From: a virus
Virus record (IMG/VR): IMGVR_UViG_3300012038_000010
Direction: 5' to 3' (one strand)
Length of the DNA: 32,488 bases
Notes under the pieces: generated by a model
The model's database searches: none
What the model was told of the DNA's origin: nothing
What the model saw: only the letters and a program-made list of their open reading frames with translations
Program-made: the position numbers and the translations under genes
Part shown: positions 1 through 32,488 of the stretch, piece by piece
Numbering within the stretch: the first letter of the stretch is position 1
Layout: the number at the start of each line of letters is the position of its first letter

Positions 1-94
1 CAGCCGAACGTAGGTTAGCCGAACGTAGGTCAGCCGAAGATAGGTCAGCCGAATATAGGTTAGCCGAACGTAGGTTAGCCGAATATAGGTTAGC
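1..94. repeat. Continuation of the same 15-bp tandem array at the other window end.
   Basis: A partial unit at 1..10 is followed by units at 11, 26, 41, 56 and 71, then a truncated unit at 86..94. Positions 1..68 are identical to 32421..32488. Confidence 0.97.
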
Positions 95-202
95 TTTTTC
101 TTTTATAGCCTGTTCTACTGTTTTTTTGATTGTATTATCTTCGCACTCATACTCGAATAATACATTTCCTAAAATAGATTTGATTTGAATTTTTGTTTTC
201 AT
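1..202 (-). CDS. Pentapeptide-repeat protein, N-terminal part. The gene continues across the window junction into 32488..31765, giving about 285 aa if the ends are joined by their 68-nt overlap.
   Basis: ATG at 202..200. My translation is MKTKIQIKSILGNVLFEYECEDNTIKKTVEQAIKEK-ANL-YSANL-RSANL-YSADL-SSADL-RSANL-RSAD..., and it stays open to position 1. The frame at position 1 (equivalent to 32421) matches the frame of ORF 31765..31992. The conserved early promoter motif lies 22 nt upstream. This ORF is absent from the supplied track because it runs off the window edge. Confidence 0.8.
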   Translation of the reverse strand, partial: MKTKIQIKSILGNVLFEYECEDNTIKKTVEQAIKEKANLYSANLRSANLYSADLSSADLRSANLRSA

Positions 203-224: not shown

Positions 225-249
225 TGTAAAGATAAGGATTATTTTAATA
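225..249 (-). promoter_or_regulatory. Copy 1 (most divergent) of the conserved early promoter motif, upstream of the pentapeptide gene.
   Basis: Plus strand reads tgtaaagataaggattattttaata. On the minus strand this gives ...TATCTTTACA with a Bacteroidota-type -7 box, TAnnTTT(A). It lies 22 nt before the ATG at 202. Confidence 0.55.
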
Positions 250-462
250 TTATTTTGTTTTTTTATTAAAATATCTTCTAACTAAATAACCTCGAATAAT
301 GCTAGTAATAAAAAACACAAATGTTATAATAAGGTTTTGCGAAAATGTAACCGGGATATTAAGCACCGGATACAGAATTAATTGTATCACGATGCTAGTT
401 ACTAACCCGATAATAGTTTGCGTAACGCTTTCTATTATTGAAAGTTTTTTAGTTTGGTTCAT
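250..462 (-). CDS. Small membrane protein (about 2 TM segments), translationally coupled to the helicase-methylase gene.
   Basis: 70-aa ORF with hydrophobic stretches IIGLVTSIVIQLILYPVL and LIITFVFFITSII and a basic C-terminus. Its start overlaps the upstream stop as TAATG at 460..464. Confidence 0.7.
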   Translation of the reverse strand: MNQTKKLSIIESVTQTIIGLVTSIVIQLILYPVLNIPVTFSQNLIITFVFFITSIIRGYLVRRYFNKKTK

Positions 463-2642
463 TAGAATAAAGTTAATGTAGAACTTTTTTCTTTTACAAA
501 ATCAGAATGATTCTTTGAATTTAAATGAAAGTAACTTTCTTTCAATTCAATGCTTATACTTTTACGATTCATTTTAATTGCAGAACAACCTTCTGAACCA
601 ATGCCCCCGAACGGGCTTAAAACAGTTTCCCCTTCATTCGAATATAAATGCAATATTCTTTCAATCGTATCTAACTGTAAAGGACAAATATGTTTTTCAT
701 CATTTCCATCGCGACCTGAACGATATTGTAAAGTCCTTCCGTAATCAATATCCATCCAAACAGGCGATGCATATTTCTGCCATAAATCAACCGGCAAATA
801 ATCTAATTCATTTGGATCTTTATCCTGGTGTTTTATTGGAGTTTCATTATCTCCTTCATTTCTGAAAAACAAAACGTAATCAGGAATACCCACTCTACTC
901 ATTACACTATCTTTTTTTATAGTTTTATGTAGCAATCCTAATGCTTTAGTTCTTTGCATTTCAGTTACCGGATTTTTCCATATTGTAGTCCGTGCATGAT
1001 AAATAAAACCTTCTTCTTTAAACCAATCAATTAACATTCCGCTAAAATCTCTTAACCCGATATAACCTTCTTTGCCTTTTTGTATCGGTAAGTCCATACA
1101 ATGAATAGCGCAAATACGACCGCTTTTAAGAACTCTTTTTAATTCAGGGATAAGGAATTTAAAATGCTGCTCAAACTGTTTATAATCGGATACATTACCC
1201 ATATCCTCTTCTTTATCTGAATAAACATAAAGTTCAGCGAATGGCGGAGAAAACACTATCACATCAGCGCAGTTGTCTGGTAATTTTTTAGTTTCCTGTA
1301 CACAATCGCCATTTATCAAATGGTAGTTGTCTGTTTTAATTTCTTTATTCATAATTTTAACTTTTGATTTAGCTGTTTTATAGTTTGTTTCTGCGGAGTA
1401 TAAAGCCATTTCTTTTATACGCTCAAAATGTTGTTTCTCTTTTTCTAAAATAGTGGCACGTACATTTGTCTGGCTTTCTGGGATTAAGATATGAACTGTA
1501 ACTTTATTTTTTTGCCCAAAACGGTAACATCTTCTAACTGCCTGGTAAAATGCTTCAAACTTAAAATCATAAGACATAAATATCATTTGATTGCATTGCT
1601 GATAGTTCATTCCAAAAGACGCTATACTGGTTTTTGTGATCAGAGTTTTAAAATTACCGTTTGCAAATCCATTTAAATGTTTCGCTTTATACTCATGACT
1701 ATCCGACCCTTGCACATTTACGCTATCATCTAACAACTTTGATAATGTATCAGTTTCATTATTTTTCAACCCCCAAACTATCCATTGATTATTATTTGAA
1801 TTAACCAATCCTAAAGTCTTTTGAATACGTAAATCAAAACTCCTGTTTAAGTCTTTGTGTAGTTCCGTAGCTGAAACTGCAACATCTCCAAATAAACTAT
1901 TACTTGTGTTTTCAACCGGAATAATATGCTCAATATATTCTATCTCAGGTAAATTATATCCTTCATCATCGAATCCCAATGTTGCAGGATTATCAATTGC
2001 AATGCTCCAACTTGAAACGTATTTCCAAAATGCATCTTTTGCGTGTTTTCTTAATCTCCATTTTGAAGTTTCCCCACCATCATGAACAAAGAACATTGCT
2101 AGCATTTCTAAATAACTCATTCCTCCTAAAAATTCCGAATGCTGCCCTAATTCCATGTGATCGTTTGGAGAAGGAGTTGCAGTACAGCAAAGTTTATAAG
2201 GAGTATTTTTGAATAACTCAATTATCAAACTTGATGTTTTTCCATCCCTGCCTTTTAAAATACTGCTTTCATCCAAAACAACTCCGGAATAAACTGAAAC
2301 ATCAATATTCTTTAACTGTTCGTAATTGTCAATATCAAAGCAATCTAAATCAACTCCGAACTTGATGGCCTCATTTTTAGTTTGTTCTATAATAGCCAAA
2401 GGTGCTAATATCAAAACTTTCATTTTTGTTTTTAATGATACTTGTTTAGACCATTCCAATTGGCAAAATGTTTTACCTAAACCGCAATCAAAGAACAAAG
2501 CAAATTTCCCTTTGAATAATGCTGTTTTAACTCCGAATTGTTGAAAGTCTTTCATAAGTTTATTTAACTTTTTATCTGACAATTCAAATCCGCTTTCAAT
2601 AAACGTTTTTCTTTTTGTGTCTAAAAATTCTGAATACTCCAT
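462..2642 (-). CDS. Fusion of an SNF2-family helicase (N-terminal) and a beta-class N6A/N4C DNA methyltransferase (C-terminal).
   Basis: Helicase motifs: CGLGKT (I), VVLDESS (II), CTATPSPN (III), QAVRRCYRFGQKNKV (VI). Methyltransferase motifs: GDC..LPDNCADVIVFSPPF (motif IV, SPPF) precedes HICPLQL...VLSPFGGIGSEG (motif I, FxGxG). That order is typical of N6_N4_Mtase enzymes. Confidence 0.85.
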   Translation of the reverse strand: MEYSEFLDTKRKTFIESGFELSDKKLNKLMKDFQQFGVKTALFKGKFALFFDCGLGKTFCQLEWSKQVSLKTKMKVLILAPLAIIEQTKNEAIKFGVDLDCFDIDNYEQLKNIDVSVYSGVVLDESSILKGRDGKTSSLIIELFKNTPYKLCCTATPSPNDHMELGQHSEFLGGMSYLEMLAMFFVHDGGETSKWRLRKHAKDAFWKYVSSWSIAIDNPATLGFDDEGYNLPEIEYIEHIIPVENTSNSLFGDVAVSATELHKDLNRSFDLRIQKTLGLVNSNNNQWIVWGLKNNETDTLSKLLDDSVNVQGSDSHEYKAKHLNGFANGNFKTLITKTSIASFGMNYQQCNQMIFMSYDFKFEAFYQAVRRCYRFGQKNKVTVHILIPESQTNVRATILEKEKQHFERIKEMALYSAETNYKTAKSKVKIMNKEIKTDNYHLINGDCVQETKKLPDNCADVIVFSPPFAELYVYSDKEEDMGNVSDYKQFEQHFKFLIPELKRVLKSGRICAIHCMDLPIQKGKEGYIGLRDFSGMLIDWFKEEGFIYHARTTIWKNPVTEMQRTKALGLLHKTIKKDSVMSRVGIPDYVLFFRNEGDNETPIKHQDKDPNELDYLPVDLWQKYASPVWMDIDYGRTLQYRSGRDGNDEKHICPLQLDTIERILHLYSNEGETVLSPFGGIGSEGCSAIKMNRKSISIELKESYFHLNSKNHSDFVKEKSSTLTLF

Positions 2643-2670: not shown

Positions 2671-2695
2671 TGTAAAGATAGTGTTTATTTTTATA
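2671..2695 (-). promoter_or_regulatory. Copy 2 of the conserved early promoter motif, upstream of the helicase-methylase gene.
   Basis: tgtaaagatagtgtttatttttata. It lies 28 nt before the ATG at 2642. Confidence 0.6.
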
Positions 2696-2932: not shown

Positions 2933-4762
2933 TTAAAATGGAACTGTATCATCGTCAAAACCAAAGGCATCGACTAAATTAACTTTTGGCAATTCGTATT
3001 CCGGTTGTGGTTCAATTGTTTTTCCTGTTCTTGTTTGATCGAATTGAGTAAATGGACTTACTCCGTTAAAATAATATCTTTGATTCCTAATATTGAAAGT
3101 TATACAGTCAACATTTTGAGGCGTTCCTACTAACTTTTGTTTTTTAATTTTCTGACTCCCGAAAACAACTTCATTATCTTTAAAATCTAATGCTCTGTTT
3201 GGCCTCCATACATATAAAACATTATCAGCTTTATCAGCAAATGTGCCACCCCCTTTAATGTTATTTAATTCCGGTCTAAAATAACGACCTTCATCCTTTT
3301 CGTTTTTACGTGCGGTCAATTGGTGAGCGACTAAATTAACACTTAACTCATTTTCAACTCCAAAACGTTTTAATTGCGACATAAAACGACTTATGTATAA
3401 ATCTTCCCTTTCTCCATTGTTTAATAAATGTTCTACGGTGTTATAAGGATCGATTATTAAACCCCTTATTCCGTTCTTTTTGATAAGGTATTTTGTTTTA
3501 TCAAAAATGGTTTGTATTTTAAAATCTTTTTCTGGATATATTACAAAAAAATGGTCATTTACAAAAGACATCGCTTCTTTGTATTCGTCTTCACTCATGT
3601 AATTATTTTTGTAATATGGATCGCATGACTTCCCTATAAAAGTTTCAATTAAATCATTATAAAAGTCATCTAAAGGGAAGTTTTCAGGACTAAATACAGC
3701 GAACTTCCATCCTGATATTATAGATTTTATTAACGCTAATTGATTTACAAATAAAGACTTTCCTTCATTCTGGTAACCTGTCCATAAATTAACCTCTCCC
3801 CCTCTCCAAGTCCATGCGTTATCTACTTCTTCTACTCCGGTGCTTTCACCTCTGTTTTGCCCATTTCGATACCCATTTAACATTGAATCCGAAACATCTG
3901 AAACACTAAAAACGCCATCTATCTTTACGTCCTTAGATAATTTGATTCTATTTGCAAGACTTTCTTTTCCATACTTAATAAGATAATCATTTGCATCTTT
4001 ACAATCTCCAAAATCAACTATTTTACATTTTTCCGCCCCGAATCTTCTGATTAATTCTTTTTGCCCTTTTTGCCCTGCTTCATCGTTATCGACTGCAATA
4101 TAAATCACTTCTTTATTTTCAAAGTAATTGTAATAGTTATCAATGTAATCTAGGTTTAACTCCCCTTTTAAATTAAATCCGTTTGGAACTGAAACGACGT
4201 TGTTAACTCCGGCTGTTGCGAATGCCAAAACATCAAACTCCCCTTCAACAATTACACATTCATTCTCTGTCGCTATTGAATCTAAATTGTAAAAAATCTT
4301 TTCAGCGTCTTTGAACAGTTTAAAATTCTTACTGCCATCCCTGTATTTTACATTTATCAATTCGCCTTTAAAGTAATAATCAAAACAAATGCAATTCTCT
4401 TCTTTTTTAGTTTGCGGCATCCATTCTTTTGCCTCTCTTATTTTTAATTGTTTTAAGACGTTTAAATCTACTGACCTAACGCTTACCATGTAATTAATAA
4501 GTTTATCGCTTAAACTTGATTTATTTGCGCTTAAAATAGGTTTAGCATATGTTTTTATCAATTCTTTTTTCTTAAAAGTATGTAATTGGATGGTTTCCCC
4601 GCAATGGTTACACTTTCCTAGTCCGGTATCCCAAAAAACAGATAAGCATTTTTCTTTGCTTTTCTTTCTGGACTCTGAACAAAGTGGGCATGTATGAGTT
4701 TTTGATTTTTCAGGTATTCCAAAAACGTTATATTCTAGTATTTCAAATCCGTTAATTTCCAT
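2933..4762 (-). CDS. Bifunctional primase-helicase (Zn-finger, TOPRIM and RecA/DnaB-like ATPase), T7 gp4-like architecture.
   Basis: CPLCSES...CNHCG zinc-binding motif. TOPRIM motifs VIVEGEFDVLA and AVDNDEAGQKG. Walker A-like GYQNEGKS. Acidic C-terminal tail ...FDDDTVPF. Confidence 0.85.
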   Translation of the reverse strand: MEINGFEILEYNVFGIPEKSKTHTCPLCSESRKKSKEKCLSVFWDTGLGKCNHCGETIQLHTFKKKELIKTYAKPILSANKSSLSDKLINYMVSVRSVDLNVLKQLKIREAKEWMPQTKKEENCICFDYYFKGELINVKYRDGSKNFKLFKDAEKIFYNLDSIATENECVIVEGEFDVLAFATAGVNNVVSVPNGFNLKGELNLDYIDNYYNYFENKEVIYIAVDNDEAGQKGQKELIRRFGAEKCKIVDFGDCKDANDYLIKYGKESLANRIKLSKDVKIDGVFSVSDVSDSMLNGYRNGQNRGESTGVEEVDNAWTWRGGEVNLWTGYQNEGKSLFVNQLALIKSIISGWKFAVFSPENFPLDDFYNDLIETFIGKSCDPYYKNNYMSEDEYKEAMSFVNDHFFVIYPEKDFKIQTIFDKTKYLIKKNGIRGLIIDPYNTVEHLLNNGEREDLYISRFMSQLKRFGVENELSVNLVAHQLTARKNEKDEGRYFRPELNNIKGGGTFADKADNVLYVWRPNRALDFKDNEVVFGSQKIKKQKLVGTPQNVDCITFNIRNQRYYFNGVSPFTQFDQTRTGKTIEPQPEYELPKVNLVDAFGFDDDTVPF

Positions 4763-4766
4763 AATA

Positions 4767-5468
4767 TTAAATTTGATTTGTTTTACCTGATATCTTTTTC
4801 CTGAATGATGAAAGGTCTTGTTTTTTTAGCCAATGAGTGAAGTGTTCTTTATAATCTTTTAAATTACTTTTTTGTTCTTCCATTGTTATCAGGTGATCGT
4901 TGAAATTATCTATAAAAAAATTAACTACATCGATACTTATTTTGTTTTGCATTGCCGTTACTTCTAACCATTGGGATGAAATTTTACACTCCGAAGAAAA
5001 AACAACGTTGTTAATAGTTATTATATTTTCTTTTTTAGTTTCTCTTTCTCTTTCTCTTTCTCTTTCTCTTTGCTTCGGTATAGGCTTCTCGTTTTTTTTG
5101 TCAAGGCTTTCAATAGGCTTCGTAGTAGGCTTCGTAGTAGGCTTCGCAGTAGGCTTACTTTTTTTACCTCCTGAACTACCTCCGCGCACTAATTTTAAAC
5201 GGTTTTCGCATGAAGGAACGAATAAAAAATTATCATTAATATTTACAAGATTTAACCTAATTAATTTATCAATTATTGTATTGATTTCATCAAAATTAAC
5301 TGCAAATTTTCTGCACCATGTATCAATTTTAATTTCGGTCTTGTTATCGTTCATCATCGCAAGGTCAATTAATTCACGATATAAACCGCGCTCAGATAAA
5401 TTTAATTCGAATACATGTTCTGAATTACCCCAGTCTTTAGGATAAAAAGTATAACCAAGTTTAGCCAT
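4767..5468 (-). CDS. DUF1376-like replication-associated protein (putative initiator or helicase loader) with a low-complexity linker.
   Basis: The N-terminus YTFYPKDWGNSEHVFELNLSERGLYRELIDLAMM fits the DUF1376 pattern. The linker is KPTAKPTTKPTTKP...RERERERERE. It sits directly upstream of the primase-helicase gene. Confidence 0.6.
   Translation of the reverse strand: MAKLGYTFYPKDWGNSEHVFELNLSERGLYRELIDLAMMNDNKTEIKIDTWCRKFAVNFDEINTIIDKLIRLNLVNINDNFLFVPSCENRLKLVRGGSSGGKKSKPTAKPTTKPTTKPIESLDKKNEKPIPKQRERERERERETKKENIITINNVVFSSECKISSQWLEVTAMQNKISIDVVNFFIDNFNDHLITMEEQKSNLKDYKEHFTHWLKKQDLSSFRKKISGKTNQI
5041..5156. repeat. Internal DNA repeats: (TCTCTT)x5 at 5041..5070, and five TAGGCTT copies at 5081, 5114, 5126, 5138 and 5150, the last four forming a 12-bp tandem.
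   Basis: Read directly: tctctt x5, then taggcttctcg...ataggcttcgtag taggcttcgtag taggcttcgcag taggctt. Confidence 0.9.
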
Positions 5469-5685: not shown

Positions 5686-5723
5686 AATTTTGTGAATGTT
5701 TAAAAAACAAACAAATTTAAATT

Positions 5724-5779
5724 GAAAAATCCCTTAATCGTTTGGCATTGCGTAGGAGCGGCCGCCCGATTAAGGGATT
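5724..5779 (-). terminator. Putative intrinsic terminator: long hairpin followed by a U-tract on the minus strand.
   Basis: The 13-bp stem pairs aatcccttaatcg (5728..5740) with cgattaagggatt (5767..5779). On the minus strand it is followed by TTTTT (plus-strand aaaaa just below the stem). The loop is unusually large at 26 nt. Confidence 0.45.
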
Positions 5780-5846
5780 AAATATTTTTATGTCTGTTCC
5801 GGCTCCTACCTCGTTACAAGTGTAAATATAATTCTTTTTTCATTAC

Positions 5847-5981
5847 CTACAAACTTTTTAATTCAAATTTATTGAAAATTATCTTATGATATATCCGGTT
5901 AACATTTTCACGGTTAACGCCTTTTTTATAATAGTAGTTCATTACTATTTTAATCCGTTGTAAGTCGCTTAGTTTTGTCAT
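5847..5981 (-). CDS. Small hypothetical protein (44 aa), below the ORF-track cutoff.
   Basis: Hand translation: MTKLSDLQRIKIVMNYYYKKGVNRENVNRIYHKIIFNKFELKSL*. ATG at 5981..5979 and TAG at 5849..5847. It fills an otherwise 340-nt gap. Confidence 0.35.
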   Translation of the reverse strand: MTKLSDLQRIKIVMNYYYKKGVNRENVNRIYHKIIFNKFELKSL

Positions 5982-6025
5982 GTGTGTAATTTAAAACAGC
6001 CTACGTTAATAGGCTGTTGGTTAGT

Positions 6026-7654: not shown

Positions 7655-7679
7655 TGTAAAGATAGTGTTTATTTTTATA
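7655..7679 (-). promoter_or_regulatory. Copy 3 of the conserved early promoter motif.
   Basis: tgtaaagatagtgtttatttttata. On the minus strand a TTTG lies 19 nt upstream of TATCTTTA, which fits the Bacteroidota -33/-7 promoter geometry. The motif is 22 nt before the ATG at 7632. Confidence 0.65.
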
Positions 7680-8341: not shown

Positions 8342-8366
8342 TGTAAAGATAGTTGTTATTTTTATA
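8342..8366 (-). promoter_or_regulatory. Copy 4 of the conserved early promoter motif.
   Basis: tgtaaagatagttgttatttttata. Confidence 0.6.
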
Positions 8367-11412: not shown

Positions 11413-11500
11413 AATTTTAGATTTTAAATTAATAATATCCAAAATTAACACTAACTTAGTATGTTAAGGTTGTGATTGTTAACTACTTATATATCACTAC

Positions 11501-11734
11501 ATGAAATATAAAAAAGAATTAAGCTGTATACTGGTGGCTATTGGAAGGAATGTAAAAAGGTTAAGGTTAGAGAAAGGATTAACTCAACAAGATTTAGCCT
11601 TCGAATGCGATATGGATAAAAGTACAGTATCTAACATTGAACGGTTTAATTTAGATAATATAACAATAGGCACACTAGTGAAAATGTGCCTAATATTAGA
11701 ATGCAATCTGATCGAATTATTTAAAATTCTTTAA
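11501..11734 (+). CDS. XRE-family helix-turn-helix transcriptional regulator. This is the only plus-strand gene.
   Basis: LRLEKGLTQQDLAFECDMDKSTVSNIERFN...TIGTLVKMCLILECNLIELF is the classic HTH_3 pattern. Confidence 0.85.
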   Translation: MKYKKELSCILVAIGRNVKRLRLEKGLTQQDLAFECDMDKSTVSNIERFNLDNITIGTLVKMCLILECNLIELFKIL

Positions 11735-29886: not shown

Positions 29887-29911
29887 TGTAAAGATAGTGT
29901 TTATTTATTTA
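29887..29911 (-). promoter_or_regulatory. Copy 5 of the conserved early promoter motif.
   Basis: tgtaaagatagtgtttatttattta. It overlaps the stop codon of the upstream gene (29901). Confidence 0.55.
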
Positions 29912-31261: not shown

Positions 31262-31762
31262 TTAAAATTTAAATCCGGCTCTTACAAATCCACTTCCTTG
31301 AAACTCCTCTTTTGCACCGCTCCAAATGAAGTCCTCTCTATAGTCGTACGTCGCACGTAATCCAACAAACCAAACATCATTAATATTGTAGTCAGTTCCT
31401 GCTTCTAATCCAAACAAAGGATAAGTACGTGAATCATTTGTTTTGTACCCTCGTTTGATAAACCCTAATCTTATCCCTGCATAGCTTCTAAAGTCCTCAA
31501 ATGTTCCATAAGTTACATTCACACCCCCAGCGCCTGTTAAATCAAAATACCCTCCTTCTAAAGCGTCAAACGATTGTACTCCGGCCTTAACGTAACCGCC
31601 ATAAGAAACAAGTTCGATTTCCGCGCCTAAGTTTAAACCGCTTTCTTTTATGCTCCCACCAGGATCGACGTAAACCGAACCCGTAAAATATTCCTTTTGC
31701 CCTAATTGTAACTGCGCGCTTGCTGTCATTCCGACTAATAACGCAAATAATAATGTTTTCAT
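31262..31762 (-). CDS. Small outer-membrane beta-barrel protein (OmpX/Lom-like size class).
   Basis: Signal peptide MKTLLFALLVGMTASAQ. The body has alternating Gly/aromatic beta-strand patterns, and the C-terminus GFVRAGFKF ends in Phe (an OMP beta-signal). The gene starts 3 nt after the pentapeptide gene stop. Confidence 0.7.
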   Translation of the reverse strand: MKTLLFALLVGMTASAQLQLGQKEYFTGSVYVDPGGSIKESGLNLGAEIELVSYGGYVKAGVQSFDALEGGYFDLTGAGGVNVTYGTFEDFRSYAGIRLGFIKRGYKTNDSRTYPLFGLEAGTDYNINDVWFVGLRATYDYREDFIWSGAKEEFQGSGFVRAGFKF

Positions 31763-31764
31763 AA

Positions 31765-32488
31765 TTAACTGTTTAAATGGTTTAAATATGCTTTGTAACT
31801 TTCGAAAATCGCTTGTATTTGTTTAAATTCATGAGTGCCTCTTCTTGTTGAATACTCTTCATTGGAATCAAAAAATATCTGCCATTCTTCAACTGATTTT
31901 GTTTTACACCCTATTTTTATTTTATCCCCCAAAATTGAATGCTCCCATTTGCAATATTGTGACAAATACGCTGATTCTTTGTTTTTAGCCAAATATAGGT
32001 CAGCCGAAGATAGGTCAGCCGAAGATAGGTCAGCCGAAGATAGGTTAGCCGAATATAGGTTAGCCGAAGATAGGTCAGCCGAAGATAGGTTAGCCGAAGA
32101 TAGGTCAGCCGAAGATAGGTTAGCCGAACGTAGGTCAGCCGAATATAGGTCAGCCGAATATAGGTTAGCCGAAGATAGGTTAGCCGAATATAGGTCAGCC
32201 GAAGATAGGTTAGCCGAACGTAGGTCAGCCGAAGATAGGTCAGCCGAAGATAGGTTAGCCGAACGTAGGTTAGCCGAACGTAGGTCAGCCGAAGATAGGT
32301 CAGCCGAATATAGGTTAGCCGAAGATAGGTCAGCCGAACGTAGGTTAGCCGAACGTAGGTCAGCCGAAGATAGGTCAGCCGAATATAGGTTAGCCGAAGA
32401 TAGGTTAGCCGAAGATAGGTCAGCCGAACGTAGGTTAGCCGAACGTAGGTCAGCCGAAGATAGGTCAGCCGAATATAGGTTAGCCGAA
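31765..32488 (-). CDS. Pentapeptide-repeat protein, repeat body plus C-terminal domain (same gene as 1..202).
   Basis: The track ORF 31765..31992 starts at a TTG, but the same frame has no stop upstream through the whole array to 32488. Each unit reads (S/R/Y)-S-A-(D/N)-L. The C-terminal part ...CKWEHSILGDKIKIGCKTKSVEEWQIFF... resembles the conserved tail of this class of pentapeptide proteins, judged from memory. Confidence 0.8.
   Translation of the reverse strand, partial: SANLYSADLSSADLRSANLRSADLSSANLSSANLYSADLSSADLRSANLRSADLSSANLYSADLSSADLRSANLRSANLSSADLSSADLRSANLSSADLYSANLSSANLYSADLYSADLRSANLSSADLSSANLSSADLSSANLYSANLSSADLSSADLSSADLYLAKNKESAYLSQYCKWEHSILGDKIKIGCKTKSVEEWQIFFDSNEEYSTRRGTHEFKQIQAIFESYKAYLNHLNS
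31996..32488. repeat. Tandem array of the 15-bp unit TAGGTYAGCCGAANN: 32 full units plus 13 nt.
   Basis: Units start at 31996 and every 15 nt after that (for example 32041, 32101, 32161, ..., 32476). Twelve of the 15 positions are invariant in every unit. Position 6 is C or T. Positions 14-15 are GA, CG or TA only. Confidence 0.97.

What the first reader, a model, noticed from the sequence alone, without database searches (positions are those of the whole stretch)
31765..32488. The terminal 'repeat region' is a junction-spanning pentapeptide-repeat gene, a possible early DNA-mimic or anti-defence protein
The supplied ORF track shows only a 75-aa stub with a TTG start (31765..31992).

What the sequence shows:
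- The same minus-strand frame stays open through the entire 15-bp array to the window edge.
- That frame is in phase with an ORF that begins at the ATG at 202 at the other end of the window. Position 1 is equivalent to 32421, and both are codon-first positions.
- Joining the ends by their 68-nt overlap gives one 285-aa protein. It has a 36-aa N-terminal domain (MKTKIQIKSILGNVLFEYECEDNTIKKTVEQAIKEK), then ANL plus 34 copies of x-S-A-(D/N)-L, then a 75-aa C-terminal domain containing IKIGCKTKSVEEWQIFF.
- A(D/N)LXX is the textbook pentapeptide-repeat signature (Pfam PF00805).

Background and inference:
- Proteins of this family form right-handed quadrilateral beta-helices. Several (Qnr, MfpA) mimic B-DNA and act on DNA gyrase.
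- Here the gene sits directly behind a conserved early promoter (225..249) and is the first gene of an early operon.
- From this I infer a host-takeover or anti-restriction/anti-defence role, as a DNA mimic or protein decoy. No such role has been shown for it.

Annotation pipelines would miss the gene because it is split by linearisation and masked as a tandem repeat.
Basis: partly seen in the sequence, partly recalled or inferred. Interest (0 to 1): 0.85.

Follow-up and report, generated by a model that had tools for sequence, protein, structure and literature searches.

The report
Hypervariable pentapeptide-repeat gene spanning the phage contig junction
The repeat region at the contig ends is one real phage gene for a rod-shaped pentapeptide-repeat protein whose outer surface and length change rapidly between near-identical phages; it most likely binds and blocks a host defence protein and is probably not a DNA mimic.

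Summary
Joining the ends through their 68-nt overlap gives an 858-nt minus-strand gene of 285 aa: a 36-aa N-cap, 35 pentapeptide units (PF00805, E=1.8e-44), and a conserved 75-aa C-terminal domain. An independent contig carries the identical gene uninterrupted. The window is a circular ~32.4-kb phage genome with a Flavobacteriaceae-type host.

The array is hypervariable. Near-identical genomes carry 34, 18 or 13 units. All within-array differences are nonsynonymous and fall on outward-facing residues. This pattern recurs in 66 related arrays and in cultured P22-like phages.

Its timing of expression is unknown.

DNA mimicry is not supported. The protein scores far below the Qnr and MfpA family cut-offs, and array charge across relatives runs from -16 to +11.

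An anti-defence role is plausible. Gene 24_60 of Vibrio phage 24 has the same architecture and counters a RexAB-like abortive-infection system. Its escape mutations are Y-to-R and N-to-D at the same outward positions.

Verdict: a new variant of a known kind, with function still inferred.

The parts
1..202 (-). 5' part of the pentapeptide-repeat gene. Start codon at 200..202, N-terminal cap (residues 1-36) at 95..202, first array units at 1..94.
   Evidence: Translation. The N-cap is conserved in 20 aligned homologues. AF2 predicts a beta-hairpin plus helix with pLDDT about 80.
31765..32420 (-). 3' part of the same gene: remaining array units, the C-terminal domain, and the stop codon at 31765..31767.
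   Evidence: In-frame join. Identical to the uninterrupted gene in L003.
32421..32488 (.). Duplicate of 1..68. This is the terminal overlap from linearising a circular assembly and should be counted once.
   Evidence: Exact 68-nt overlap. The genome is 32,420 bp once the duplicate is removed. The lengths of L001 and L002 agree with this.
31987..32488 (-). Coding 15-nt tandem array. Together with 1..94 it encodes 35 A(D/N)L(S/R/Y)S units. There are six DNA unit types, which differ only at unit nucleotides 1, 2 and 10.
   Evidence: TRF. Unit table showing no synonymous variation. PF00805. Beta-helix match to 4yc5 with rmsd 0.8 A over 126 columns.
31768..31995 (-). Conserved C-terminal domain (about 75 aa): a three-stranded sheet plus two helices. 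Invariant residues are C224, W226, G238-C239, W247, F250-F251, T259, R261 and FKQI266-269.
   Evidence: Alignments A1 and A2. 230 clusters in the 1.84-billion-protein library at E<=1e-3. AF2 pLDDT about 90. No PDB fold match, best E=1.3. Core motif shared with Orf-232 of phage ST64T.
225..245 (-). Promoter-like or regulatory motif AAAATAATCCTTATCTTTACA, ending 22 nt upstream of the ATG. It is one of five copies in the genome.
   Evidence: 5 matches, all on the coding strand, against 0.21 expected by chance. Alignment of the five sites. The TATCTTTA core resembles the Bacteroidota -7 box TAnnTTTG (from my own knowledge).

Best explanation
What it is (shown). The terminal repeat is the middle of a single protein-coding gene of a circular ~32.4-kb phage genome from a Flavobacteriaceae-type host. 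The 285-aa product has three parts. A small N-terminal cap comes first. It is followed by about 35 pentapeptide units, predicted to form a right-handed four-sided beta-helix of nearly nine coils. A conserved C-terminal domain of unknown fold closes the protein.

How the array behaves (shown). It is a coding minisatellite. Its 15-nt units are identical at every synonymous site and at the inward-facing Ala and Leu codons. They differ only in the codons for two outward-facing residues, D/N and S/R/Y. Units are gained, lost and reshuffled quickly, so near-identical genomes carry 34, 18 or 13 units.

How it most likely works (inferred). The helix surface is a rapidly re-patterned binding face, and the constant C-terminal domain is the anchor, dimerisation or effector part. 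The protein is made inside the infected cell from its own promoter-like motif in the non-structural region. It binds and neutralises a fast-evolving host protein, most probably part of an anti-phage defence such as an abortive-infection system. Cassette shuffling lets the phage re-tune that binding surface.
For: - Gene and fold.
- Independent intact copies, and at least five array alleles in genomes that are 99.7-100% identical outside the array; one of the five comes from a ~97%-identical strain (L005). New unit types HSANL and CSANL are single-step intermediates between existing codons.
- Within the window's array, only unit nucleotides 1, 2 and 10 vary, and every difference is nonsynonymous.
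- Family-wide pattern in 66 distinct arrays: polymorphism sits at codon positions 1-2 of residues i-1, i+1 and i+2 (58, 54, 49 and 37 of 66 arrays). Third codon positions vary in only 4-18 of 66. Codon-variant pairs are 447 nonsynonymous against 31 synonymous.
- The same pattern, with 12-24 units, occurs in finished genomes of cultured P22-like phages whose C-domains are at least 99% identical. A 15-bp indel between phages L and ST64T is reported in 10.1101/2020.10.05.325894.
- The C-domain is also fused to other repeat scaffolds: LRR, GGxFL, DGxWE and a hexapeptide repeat. This fits a constant module paired with a variable binder.
- The gene lies in the non-structural region behind a repeated motif. 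Relatives lie next to exonuclease/ERF genes, or right after N/ral in the P22-like early-left operon.
- Function: Vibrio phage 24 gene 24_60 (SBVc24_0060) has the same architecture. Its deletion sensitises the phage to the RexAB-like Sucellos system. All six escapers sequenced carry Y112R plus N115D, which are positions i+1 and i-1 of an ANLYG-ANL stretch (10.1101/2024.07.02.601686).
Against: - There are no expression, interaction or phenotype data for this phage or for any member of its own subfamily.
- Homology to the 24_60/Orf-232 C-domain covers only a 26-29-column core (hhalign 94.8% and 78%). tblastn of the C-domain finds nothing in 50,697 cultured phage genomes.
- Short-read assemblies of such arrays can be wrong, so some unit counts among relatives may be underestimates.
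- The absence of synonymous variation could partly reflect recent expansion and homogenisation rather than selection.
- PADLOC and Pfam give no functional hint for the C-domain.
Confidence: 0.55

Rival explanations
1. The beta-helix is a B-DNA mimic that acts on DNA gyrase or on restriction-modification or other DNA-sensing defences, like Qnr/MfpA, or functionally like Ocr/ArdA.
For: - PRP fold shared with Qnr, MfpA and AlbG.
- The array is mildly acidic: net -9, pI 4.07.
- The gene sits next to a helicase-DNA methyltransferase gene.
- In P22-like phages the related gene lies beside ral, an anti-restriction gene.
Against: - It falls far below the curated family cut-offs: Qnr 60.9 against 240, MfpA 55.6 against 360.
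- 9 Arg are interspersed with 18 Asp on all four faces, with no face periodicity.
- Array net charge among relatives with the same caps runs from -16 to +11.
- Rod length varies 2.6-fold between near-identical genomes.
- McbG and QnrB did not inhibit BREX (PMC7261183).
- The tested relative counters a RexAB-like membrane abortive-infection system.
Confidence: 0.12
2. It is an intracellular binder with a role other than anti-defence. Examples are inhibiting or redirecting a host housekeeping protein (host takeover), or excluding competing phages.
For: - Same structural and evolutionary evidence as the main explanation.
- Non-structural location.
- In P22-like phages the related gene neighbours gene 17 and kil-type genes.
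Against: Housekeeping targets evolve slowly and would not obviously favour a constantly re-patterned surface. The only experimental datum in the wider family points to counter-defence.
Confidence: 0.2
3. The array is mainly a DNA-level element, such as replication-origin iterons or a packaging or recombination site, and only happens to be translatable. Alternatively it is an assembly artefact.
For: - 34 near-identical 15-bp units with invariant synonymous sites.
- It lies between the replication and packaging modules.
- Lambda-type origins lie inside coding genes (from my own knowledge).
Against: - The frame is always kept.
- The Ala and Leu core is invariant, while the variable nucleotides are exactly the amino-acid-changing positions of outward-facing residues, in 66 arrays with different DNA units.
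- The flanking N- and C-domains are conserved across hundreds of homologues.
- Identical arrays appear in independent assemblies.
Confidence: 0.03
4. It is a structural or surface protein, for example a fibre or decoration protein whose variable rod contacts the host surface.
For: - Weak repeat-driven hits to tail PHROGs (phrog_38009 E=0.0078, phrog_28766 E=0.13).
- Variable repeats are common in receptor-binding proteins (from my own knowledge).
Against: - The gene lies outside the structural module, among replication and small accessory genes.
- Relatives lie beside recombination or early-left genes.
- No signal peptide and no virion-protein domain.
Confidence: 0.05

Closest known systems
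Vibrio phage 24 gene 24_60 (SBVc24_0060), a pentapeptide-repeat anti-defence protein acting against the RexAB-like Sucellos system (bioRxiv 10.1101/2024.07.02.601686)
   Same: - Small phage protein with an N-terminal cap, a homogeneous tandem A(D/N)LXX array, and a C-domain carrying the beta-hairpin-GC-x3-T-x-EEW core.
- Non-structural location beside methyltransferase and primase genes.
- The repeat region was hard to assemble.
- Its functional escape mutations, Y to R and N to D, are the same substitution types that distinguish units in the window's array.
   Different: - Its N-cap is a helix, not a beta-hairpin.
- The C-domain is alignable only over about 29 columns.
- Different host phylum, and a shorter array in the deposited record.
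- Anti-defence activity is shown there and only inferred here.
Orf-232 / 'phage pentapeptide repeat family protein' of P22-like phages (ST64T, L, ST104, epsilon34 gp42; phrog_7713 and phrog_37032)
   Same: - Shared PHROG hits: phrog_7713 E=3.8e-53 for the window protein and 1.9e-46 for Orf-232.
- 15-nt cassette arrays vary from 12 to 24 units between phages with identical flanks. Only outward-facing residues change.
- A 15-bp indel between L and ST64T is noted in the literature.
- It is an accessory gene of an early transcription unit, placed after N/ral.
   Different: - Function untested.
- Remote C-domain relationship (hhalign 94.8% over 26 columns), and no BLAST-level similarity.
- The window's array is longer, at 35 units.
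Qnr / MfpA / AlbG / McbG topoisomerase-interacting pentapeptide-repeat proteins
   Same: PF00805 right-handed quadrilateral beta-helix.
   Different: - Those proteins have diverged, non-tandem repeats at the DNA level, a fixed length, and characteristic loops or dimer interfaces (from my own knowledge).
- The window protein scores 4-6 times below their NCBIfam cut-offs.
- It has a distinct C-domain and a surface of variable charge.
Constant-module plus variable-repeat proteins of biological conflict systems (LRR, TPR or pentapeptide sensor arrays in bacterial NLR-like proteins; lamprey VLRs; DGR targets)
   Same: A conserved domain is coupled to a solenoid repeat whose exposed residues diversify. 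Pentapeptide repeats are listed among such sensor arrays (PMC7159879; 10.1101/2022.07.19.500537).
   Different: - Here the system is phage-encoded and very small.
- Diversification is by gain, loss and shuffling of 15-nt cassettes within the gene.
- The varying bases are not adenine-specific, and no reverse-transcriptase family appears among the Pfam or PHROG hits of the genes scanned.

Membership tests
Pentapeptide repeat proteins (Pfam PF00805) | Tandem A(D/N)LXX pentapeptides scoring above the Pfam gathering threshold | tested here: met
   E=1.8e-44, 149.3 bits against a cut-off of 20.2, 6 stretches. 35 units in register.
Pentapeptide repeat proteins (Pfam PF00805) | Right-handed quadrilateral beta-helix fold | tested here: met
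   The AF2 model has one strand every 5 residues, with pLDDT 85-95 over residues 120-210. Foldseek matches 4yc5 (rmsd 0.8 A over 126 columns) and also HetL, Qnr and MfpA. This is a prediction, not a solved structure.
Qnr/MfpA-type DNA-mimic, gyrase-interacting PRPs | Sequence membership (NCBIfam equivalog cut-offs) | tested here: not met
   penta_rpt_Qnr 60.9 bits against 240; MfpA 55.6 against 360; all Qnr subfamilies at or below 56 against 425-500.
Qnr/MfpA-type DNA-mimic, gyrase-interacting PRPs | Conserved polyanionic, DNA-like surface | tested here: inconclusive
   The window's array has net charge -9 (18 D, 9 R), spread over all four faces. Relatives with the same caps range from -16 to +11. 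No electrostatic surface was computed.
Qnr/MfpA-type DNA-mimic, gyrase-interacting PRPs | Binds or protects DNA gyrase or topoisomerase IV | not testable with these tools
   Needs biochemistry.
Phage Orf-232 / 24_60-type hypervariable PRPs (phrog_7713, phrog_37032, phrog_31567) | Architecture: short N-cap, DNA-homogeneous tandem PRP array, and a C-domain with a beta-hairpin-GC-x3-(T/S)-x-EEW core | tested here: met
   Window motif IKIGCKTKSVEEW against ST64T VRAGCQNHTVEEW and phage 24 VRAGCQSYTIEEW. hhalign 94.8% (E=4.9e-8) and 78% (E=1.8e-5). Shared PHROGs.
Phage Orf-232 / 24_60-type hypervariable PRPs (phrog_7713, phrog_37032, phrog_31567) | Homology over the whole C-terminal domain | tested here: inconclusive
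   Only 26-29 columns align. The C-domain alone hits phrog_31567 at E=0.0074. tblastn against cultured phages finds nothing at E<=1.
Phage Orf-232 / 24_60-type hypervariable PRPs (phrog_7713, phrog_37032, phrog_31567) | Unit-number variation in 15-nt steps, with changes confined to outward-facing residues | tested here: met
   34, 18 and 13 units in near-identical genomes. Only unit nucleotides 1, 2 and 10 vary. Same pattern in 66 arrays and in P22-like phages.
Phage Orf-232 / 24_60-type hypervariable PRPs (phrog_7713, phrog_37032, phrog_31567) | Counter-defence activity | not testable with these tools
   Shown genetically only for phage 24 gene 24_60.
Diversity-generating retroelement targets | Adenine-specific variation together with a reverse transcriptase and a template repeat | tested here: not met
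   The variable bases are T/C, C/G/A and G/A. No reverse-transcriptase family appears among the Pfam or PHROG hits of the window genes scanned.

The most novel reading that the evidence does not exclude
Phages may carry a widespread, enzyme-free surface-diversification module. It would consist of a constant C-terminal domain joined to an exchangeable solenoid scaffold: pentapeptide, hexapeptide, LRR, GGxFL or DGxWE repeats. The outward-facing residues would be re-patterned by gain, loss and conversion of short DNA cassettes within the gene. That would give a fast-evolving family of intracellular binders that track host defence proteins, a phage-side analogue of variable repeat receptors. The window's 35-unit gene would be an extreme, expanded example in Flavobacteriaceae phages.
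Probability: 0.3. Interest if true: 0.8.

Novelty: new variant of a known kind. Interest (0 to 1): 0.6.

Why it matters
If the inference holds, this family is a compact natural system in which a phage retunes a binding surface simply by reshuffling 15-nt cassettes on a rigid beta-helix. That would help explain how phages keep up with diverse abortive-infection and other defences. It would give Flavobacteriaceae phage biology a concrete counter-defence candidate, and it would offer a programmable solenoid scaffold.

There is also a practical point. The gene systematically breaks short-read assemblies and sits at contig ends. It is therefore under-annotated in metagenomic viral catalogues and even in GenBank phage records. 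A terminal overlap inside it can also be mistaken for a true terminal repeat.

Tried and rejected
- Megablast of 25 kb of the window and tblastn of the full protein against 50,697 phage records found nothing. The protein query was probably masked as low complexity.
- tblastn of the C-domain alone also found nothing at E<=1.
- Exact flank searches found nothing in IMG/VR or in the JGI metagenome collection. Intact copies came from the look-up of encoding contigs instead.
A 25-mer with up to 3 mismatches found only the site itself. Inspecting the intergenic gaps revealed the motif, and a degenerate 21-mer confirmed 5 copies.
- The sigma-70 scan gave only a hit whose -10 box overlaps the ATG, and no terminator upstream of the gene. 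I do not rely on it for a Bacteroidota-type host.
- PADLOC gave no hit.
- NCBIfam 'Alr5209' passes its cut-off only by summing repeat hits, so I did not take it as membership.
- Fold search of the C-domain found no PDB match. In the viral library it found only an unannotated homologue.
- The DGR idea was rejected.
- The iteron or DNA-element idea was rejected as the main explanation.
- A four-unit 'face' periodicity of charge was looked for and not found. Only a 6-unit segmental duplication signal appeared.
- There is no conserved neighbouring partner gene. DUF7220 recurs next to a relative in only 1 locus and the 166-aa signal-peptide protein in none.
- Tenacibaculum phage JQ, the closest cultured relative by primase, shows no annotated PRP in the 9.6 kb examined.
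Full report
**1. Observation**

The window ends in a 15-nt tandem array at 31987..32488 (33.5 copies, 89% matches) and begins with six more copies at 1..94. The two ends share an exact 68-nt overlap.

Removing the duplicate and reading the minus strand from ATG 202 through position 1 into 32420 and down to the stop at 31765..31767 gives an 858-nt ORF of 285 aa. Its layout is:
- residues 1-36: MKTKIQIKSILGNVLFEYECEDNTIKKTVEQAIKEK;
- ANL plus 34 x-S-A-(D/N)-L units;
- a 75-aa C-terminus.

The mechanical ORF list shows only the 75-aa TTG stub.

One caveat: the 68-mer also occurs at 32331, so the overlap alone cannot fix the copy number.

**2. Is the join real?**

Look-ups of the two flanking proteins found the same phage in many public assemblies.
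- Contig L003 (JGI 3300027362, 5380 bp) crosses the array and is identical to the joined gene over all 858 nt.
- Two MEGAHIT k141 contigs linearised elsewhere (L001 from a 32,321-bp contig, L002 from a 32,246-bp contig) also contain the gene intact, with 18 and 13 units.
- Their lengths minus a 141-nt circular overlap equal 32,420 minus 16 and 21 units exactly. That is independent support for a circular ~32.4-kb genome.
- Outside the array these genomes are 99.7-100% identical to the window.
- The longest exact internal repeat in the gene is 89 nt, so 150-nt reads or k>=91 can resolve it.
- Eleven further contigs simply stop inside the array. In L003 the gene caller chose a 257-aa ORF on the opposite strand.

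**3. What the protein is**

- PF00805 matches at E=1.8e-44.
- PDB sequence hits are all pentapeptide-repeat proteins.
- An AlphaFold2 model built on 20 homologues predicts a beta-hairpin plus helix N-cap, a strand every five residues, and a compact C-terminal domain. Mean pLDDT is 76.8 and exceeds 85 over residues 120-285. The low-confidence stretch at 41-93 coincides with alignment gaps.
- Foldseek superposes the helix on a designed pentapeptide solenoid (4yc5) at 0.8 A, and also on HetL, Qnr and MfpA.

**4. Genome context**

All genes lie on the minus strand. PHROG and Pfam hits give this order along the direction of transcription:
1. an ERF recombinase;
2. DUF3127;
3. DUF7833;
4. a primase/DnaB helicase (2933..4762);
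5. an SNF2 helicase fused to an N6/N4 DNA methyltransferase (462..2642);
6. DUF7220 (250..462);
7. the repeat gene;
8. a 166-aa signal-peptide protein that starts 2 nt after the repeat gene's stop;
9. small ORFs;
10. terminase small and large subunits, then tail genes and the portal.

The closest cultured relatives are Tenacibaculum phage JQ (primase 65% identity) and Flavobacterium psychrophilum phages (TerL 37%). GC content is 35.1%. Related contigs are binned with Flavobacterium MAGs.

**5. The promoter claim**

My first test was a false negative: a 25-mer with up to 3 mismatches found only the site itself. Printing all intergenic gaps revealed a shared element.

The pattern AAAATAANCNYTATCTTTACA occurs five times, always on the coding strand, against 0.21 expected by chance. 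The sites are:
- 225..245, ahead of the repeat gene;
- 2671..2691, ahead of the helicase-methyltransferase gene;
- 7655..7675 and 8342..8362, ahead of the small genes leading into the recombination module;
- 29887..29907.

Four of the five lie in intergenic gaps 22-35 nt upstream of a start codon, and they align over about 28 nt. The TATCTTTA core resembles the Bacteroidota -7 box TAnnTTTG (from my own knowledge).

The gene therefore does sit behind a repeated promoter-like or regulatory motif, and it may head a transcription unit. That the unit is 'early' is not shown.

**6. The array is hypervariable in a specific way**

The 34 DNA units fall into six types. They differ only at unit nucleotides 1-2 (TCT, CGT or TAT, encoding S, R or Y) and nucleotide 10 (GAC or AAC, encoding D or N). 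The other 12 positions, including every synonymous site, are invariant.

In the standard pentapeptide geometry (from my own knowledge of the family), Ala (i-2) and Leu (i) point inward, while i-1, i+1 and i+2 point outward. All variation is therefore amino-acid-changing and on the surface.

At least five alleles exist. Four are in genomes 99.7-100% identical to the window outside the array; the fifth is from a ~97%-identical strain:
- 34 units (window and L003);
- 18 units including a new HSANL unit (L001);
- 13 units (L002);
- an RSADL-to-RSANL change (L015);
- a CSANL unit (L005, the ~97%-identical strain).

CAT and TGT are one-step intermediates between the TAT, TCT and CGT codons.

**7. 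The family**

- The C-domain alone retrieves 21 close homologues.
- It retrieves 230 clusters at E<=1e-3 in an exhaustive 1.84-billion-protein search.
- 111 IMG/VR loci and 6 genome contigs encode relatives.
- Full-length relatives in the IMG/VR and genome contigs have 160-390 aa and 10-55 units. Close homologues from the protein search are shorter: 107-150 aa with roughly 1-11 units. Many contigs start or end inside the array.
- Across 66 non-identical arrays, polymorphism with minor-allele frequency >=10% is found at the first codon position of i-1 in 58 arrays. It is found at positions 1 and 2 of i+1 in 54 and 49 arrays, and at position 2 of i+2 in 37.
- At third codon positions it appears in only 4-18 arrays. 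Codon-variant pairs are 447 nonsynonymous against 31 synonymous. Unit selection required Ala and Leu, so only their third positions are informative.
- Different lineages use different residue sets (for example R/E/I, Y/W and G/D/N), and array net charge spans -16 to +11.

**8. The C-terminal domain**

It has invariant C224, W226, G238-C239, W247, FF250-251, T259, R261 and FKQI266-269. It is modelled confidently as three strands plus two helices.

It has no PDB fold match (best E=1.3), no Pfam, NCBIfam or PADLOC hit, and only an unannotated 'COG1357' phage homologue in BFVD.

The same domain follows other repeat scaffolds:
- LRR (P0143);
- GGxFL (P0047);
- DGxWE (P0156);
- CKGNL-type repeats (P0145);
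- in Aeromonas phage PS, a GNAxVx hexapeptide repeat precedes an Orf-232-type C-domain (RAGCQIYTFQEW), the related domain described in section 9.

This is the pattern of a constant module coupled to an interchangeable, variable solenoid.

**9. Links to cultured phages and to function**

A literature search turned up the phage L genome paper. It notes a 15-bp deletion removing one pentapeptide repeat in early-left-operon gene orf232 as one of only two differences from ST64T.

ST64T Orf-232 lies between ral and gene 17. It has an N-terminal helix, a homogeneous GADLR-type array and a C-domain containing VRAGCQNHTVEEW. It shares phrog_7713 with the window protein. It aligns to the window family's C-domain profile at 94.8% probability (E=4.9e-8) over 26 columns. 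A four-sequence profile gives 78% (E=1.8e-5) over 29 columns. This is remote homology limited to the hairpin-GC-x3-T-x-EEW core.

Forty-three cultured phage records carry this domain. In P22-like phages the gene follows N or ral directly. Phages with at least 99% identical C-domains have arrays of about 12-24 units. Their DNA units again differ only at amino-acid-changing positions of i-1 (D/N/Y), i+1 (R/C/Y) and i+2 (G/D). This removes the worry that the pattern is a metagenome-assembly artefact.

Several GenBank records are cut inside such genes:
- Yersinia phage fEV-1, where the record starts in the array and only the C-terminal stub is annotated as g01;
- Salmonella phage Bp96115;
- Aeromonas phage PS.

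One member has a tested function. Vibrio phage 24 gene 24_60 (SBVc24_0060, my hit H56) is reported in bioRxiv 10.1101/2024.07.02.601686. Deleting it makes the phage far more sensitive to Sucellos, a RexAB-like abortive-infection system. All six sequenced escapers carry Y112R with N115D in it. The authors had to PCR and Sanger-sequence the repeat because it would not assemble. In the repeat register (ANLYG-ANL), Y112 is position i+1 and N115 is position i-1. These are exactly the two positions, and the same residue swaps, that distinguish units in the window's array.

**10. Interpretation**

Shown:
- the gene, its fold class and its architecture;
- its hypervariability and the surface-restricted, nonsynonymous pattern;
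- its promoter-like motif and its non-structural position.

Inferred:
- the helix surface is a binding face;
- the target is a host defence protein;
- cassette shuffling retunes specificity.

- the curated Qnr and MfpA thresholds are not met;
- charge is neither strong nor conserved;
- the length is not fixed.

It is still not excluded biochemically. A DNA-level role for the repeats, a virion role, and DGR-type mutagenesis are unlikely.

**11. Novelty and score**

Phage pentapeptide-repeat proteins are an annotated family with no assigned function in PHROGs. One distant relative has a published counter-defence phenotype. The window's gene is therefore not a new kind of thing.

What appears new:
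- the Flavobacteriaceae-phage subfamily, with its own uncharacterised C-domain and very long arrays;
- the family-wide rule that only outward-facing residues vary through 15-nt cassette turnover;
- the pairing of the C-domain with several solenoid types.

I rate it a new variant of a known kind, with interest 0.6.

Noticed in passing
window 2671-2691, 7655-7675, 8342-8362, 29887-29907 (minus strand), plus 225-245: There are five copies of a 21-28-nt motif, (T)ATAAAAATAAACACTATCTTTACAAAA, all on the coding strand, against 0.21 expected. Four sit 22-35 nt upstream of start codons. It is probably the phage's own promoter or regulator site, and its core resembles the Bacteroidota -7 box.
   Followed up: partly
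L107 (Yersinia phage fEV-1, LT992259) 1-514; L108/L109 (Aeromonas phage PS, MT259468) record junction; L116 (Salmonella phage Bp96115) record end: GenBank records of cultured phages are cut inside homologous repeat genes. The fEV-1 record starts within the pentapeptide array, and only a 62-aa C-terminal stub is annotated as g01. The Aeromonas phage PS junction splits a GNAxVx hexapeptide-repeat gene that carries the same C-domain core.
   Followed up: partly
proteins P0143, P0047, P0156, P0145, P0110: The conserved C-terminal domain also follows leucine-rich repeats, GGxFL repeats, DGxWE repeats and CKGNL-type repeats. In one 375-aa protein it lies in the middle of the sequence.
   Followed up: no
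window 5039-5071 and 5114-5156 (inside the DUF7833 gene 4767-5468, minus strand): There are two further in-frame coding tandem repeats: TTTCTC x5.5 and a 12-nt unit x3.6. Contig L012 begins exactly in the GAGAAA repeat, so this repeat also breaks assemblies.
   Followed up: no
window 462-2642 (minus strand): A single 726-aa ORF fuses an SNF2-type helicase C-terminal domain with an N6/N4 DNA methyltransferase (PF00271 + PF01555). It lies one gene upstream of the repeat gene and may be relevant to restriction evasion.
   Followed up: no
window 31262-31762 (minus strand): A 166-aa protein with a typical signal peptide (MKTLLFALLVGMTASAQ...) starts 2 nt after the repeat gene's stop codon. It has no PHROG hit and is not found next to the repeat gene in the 86 related loci searched (L019-L104).
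   Followed up: partly
window 5686-6025 and 11452-11720: These are the largest non-coding gaps in an otherwise tightly packed one-strand genome. The second contains the only sizeable plus-strand ORF (11501-11734, 77 aa). They could be a regulatory or origin region.
   Followed up: no
L003 3038-3811: The public gene call over the array in this JGI contig is a 257-aa ORF on the antisense strand. The antisense frame (GQPKI-type) is open through the repeats, so wrong-strand calls are likely elsewhere too.
   Followed up: yes
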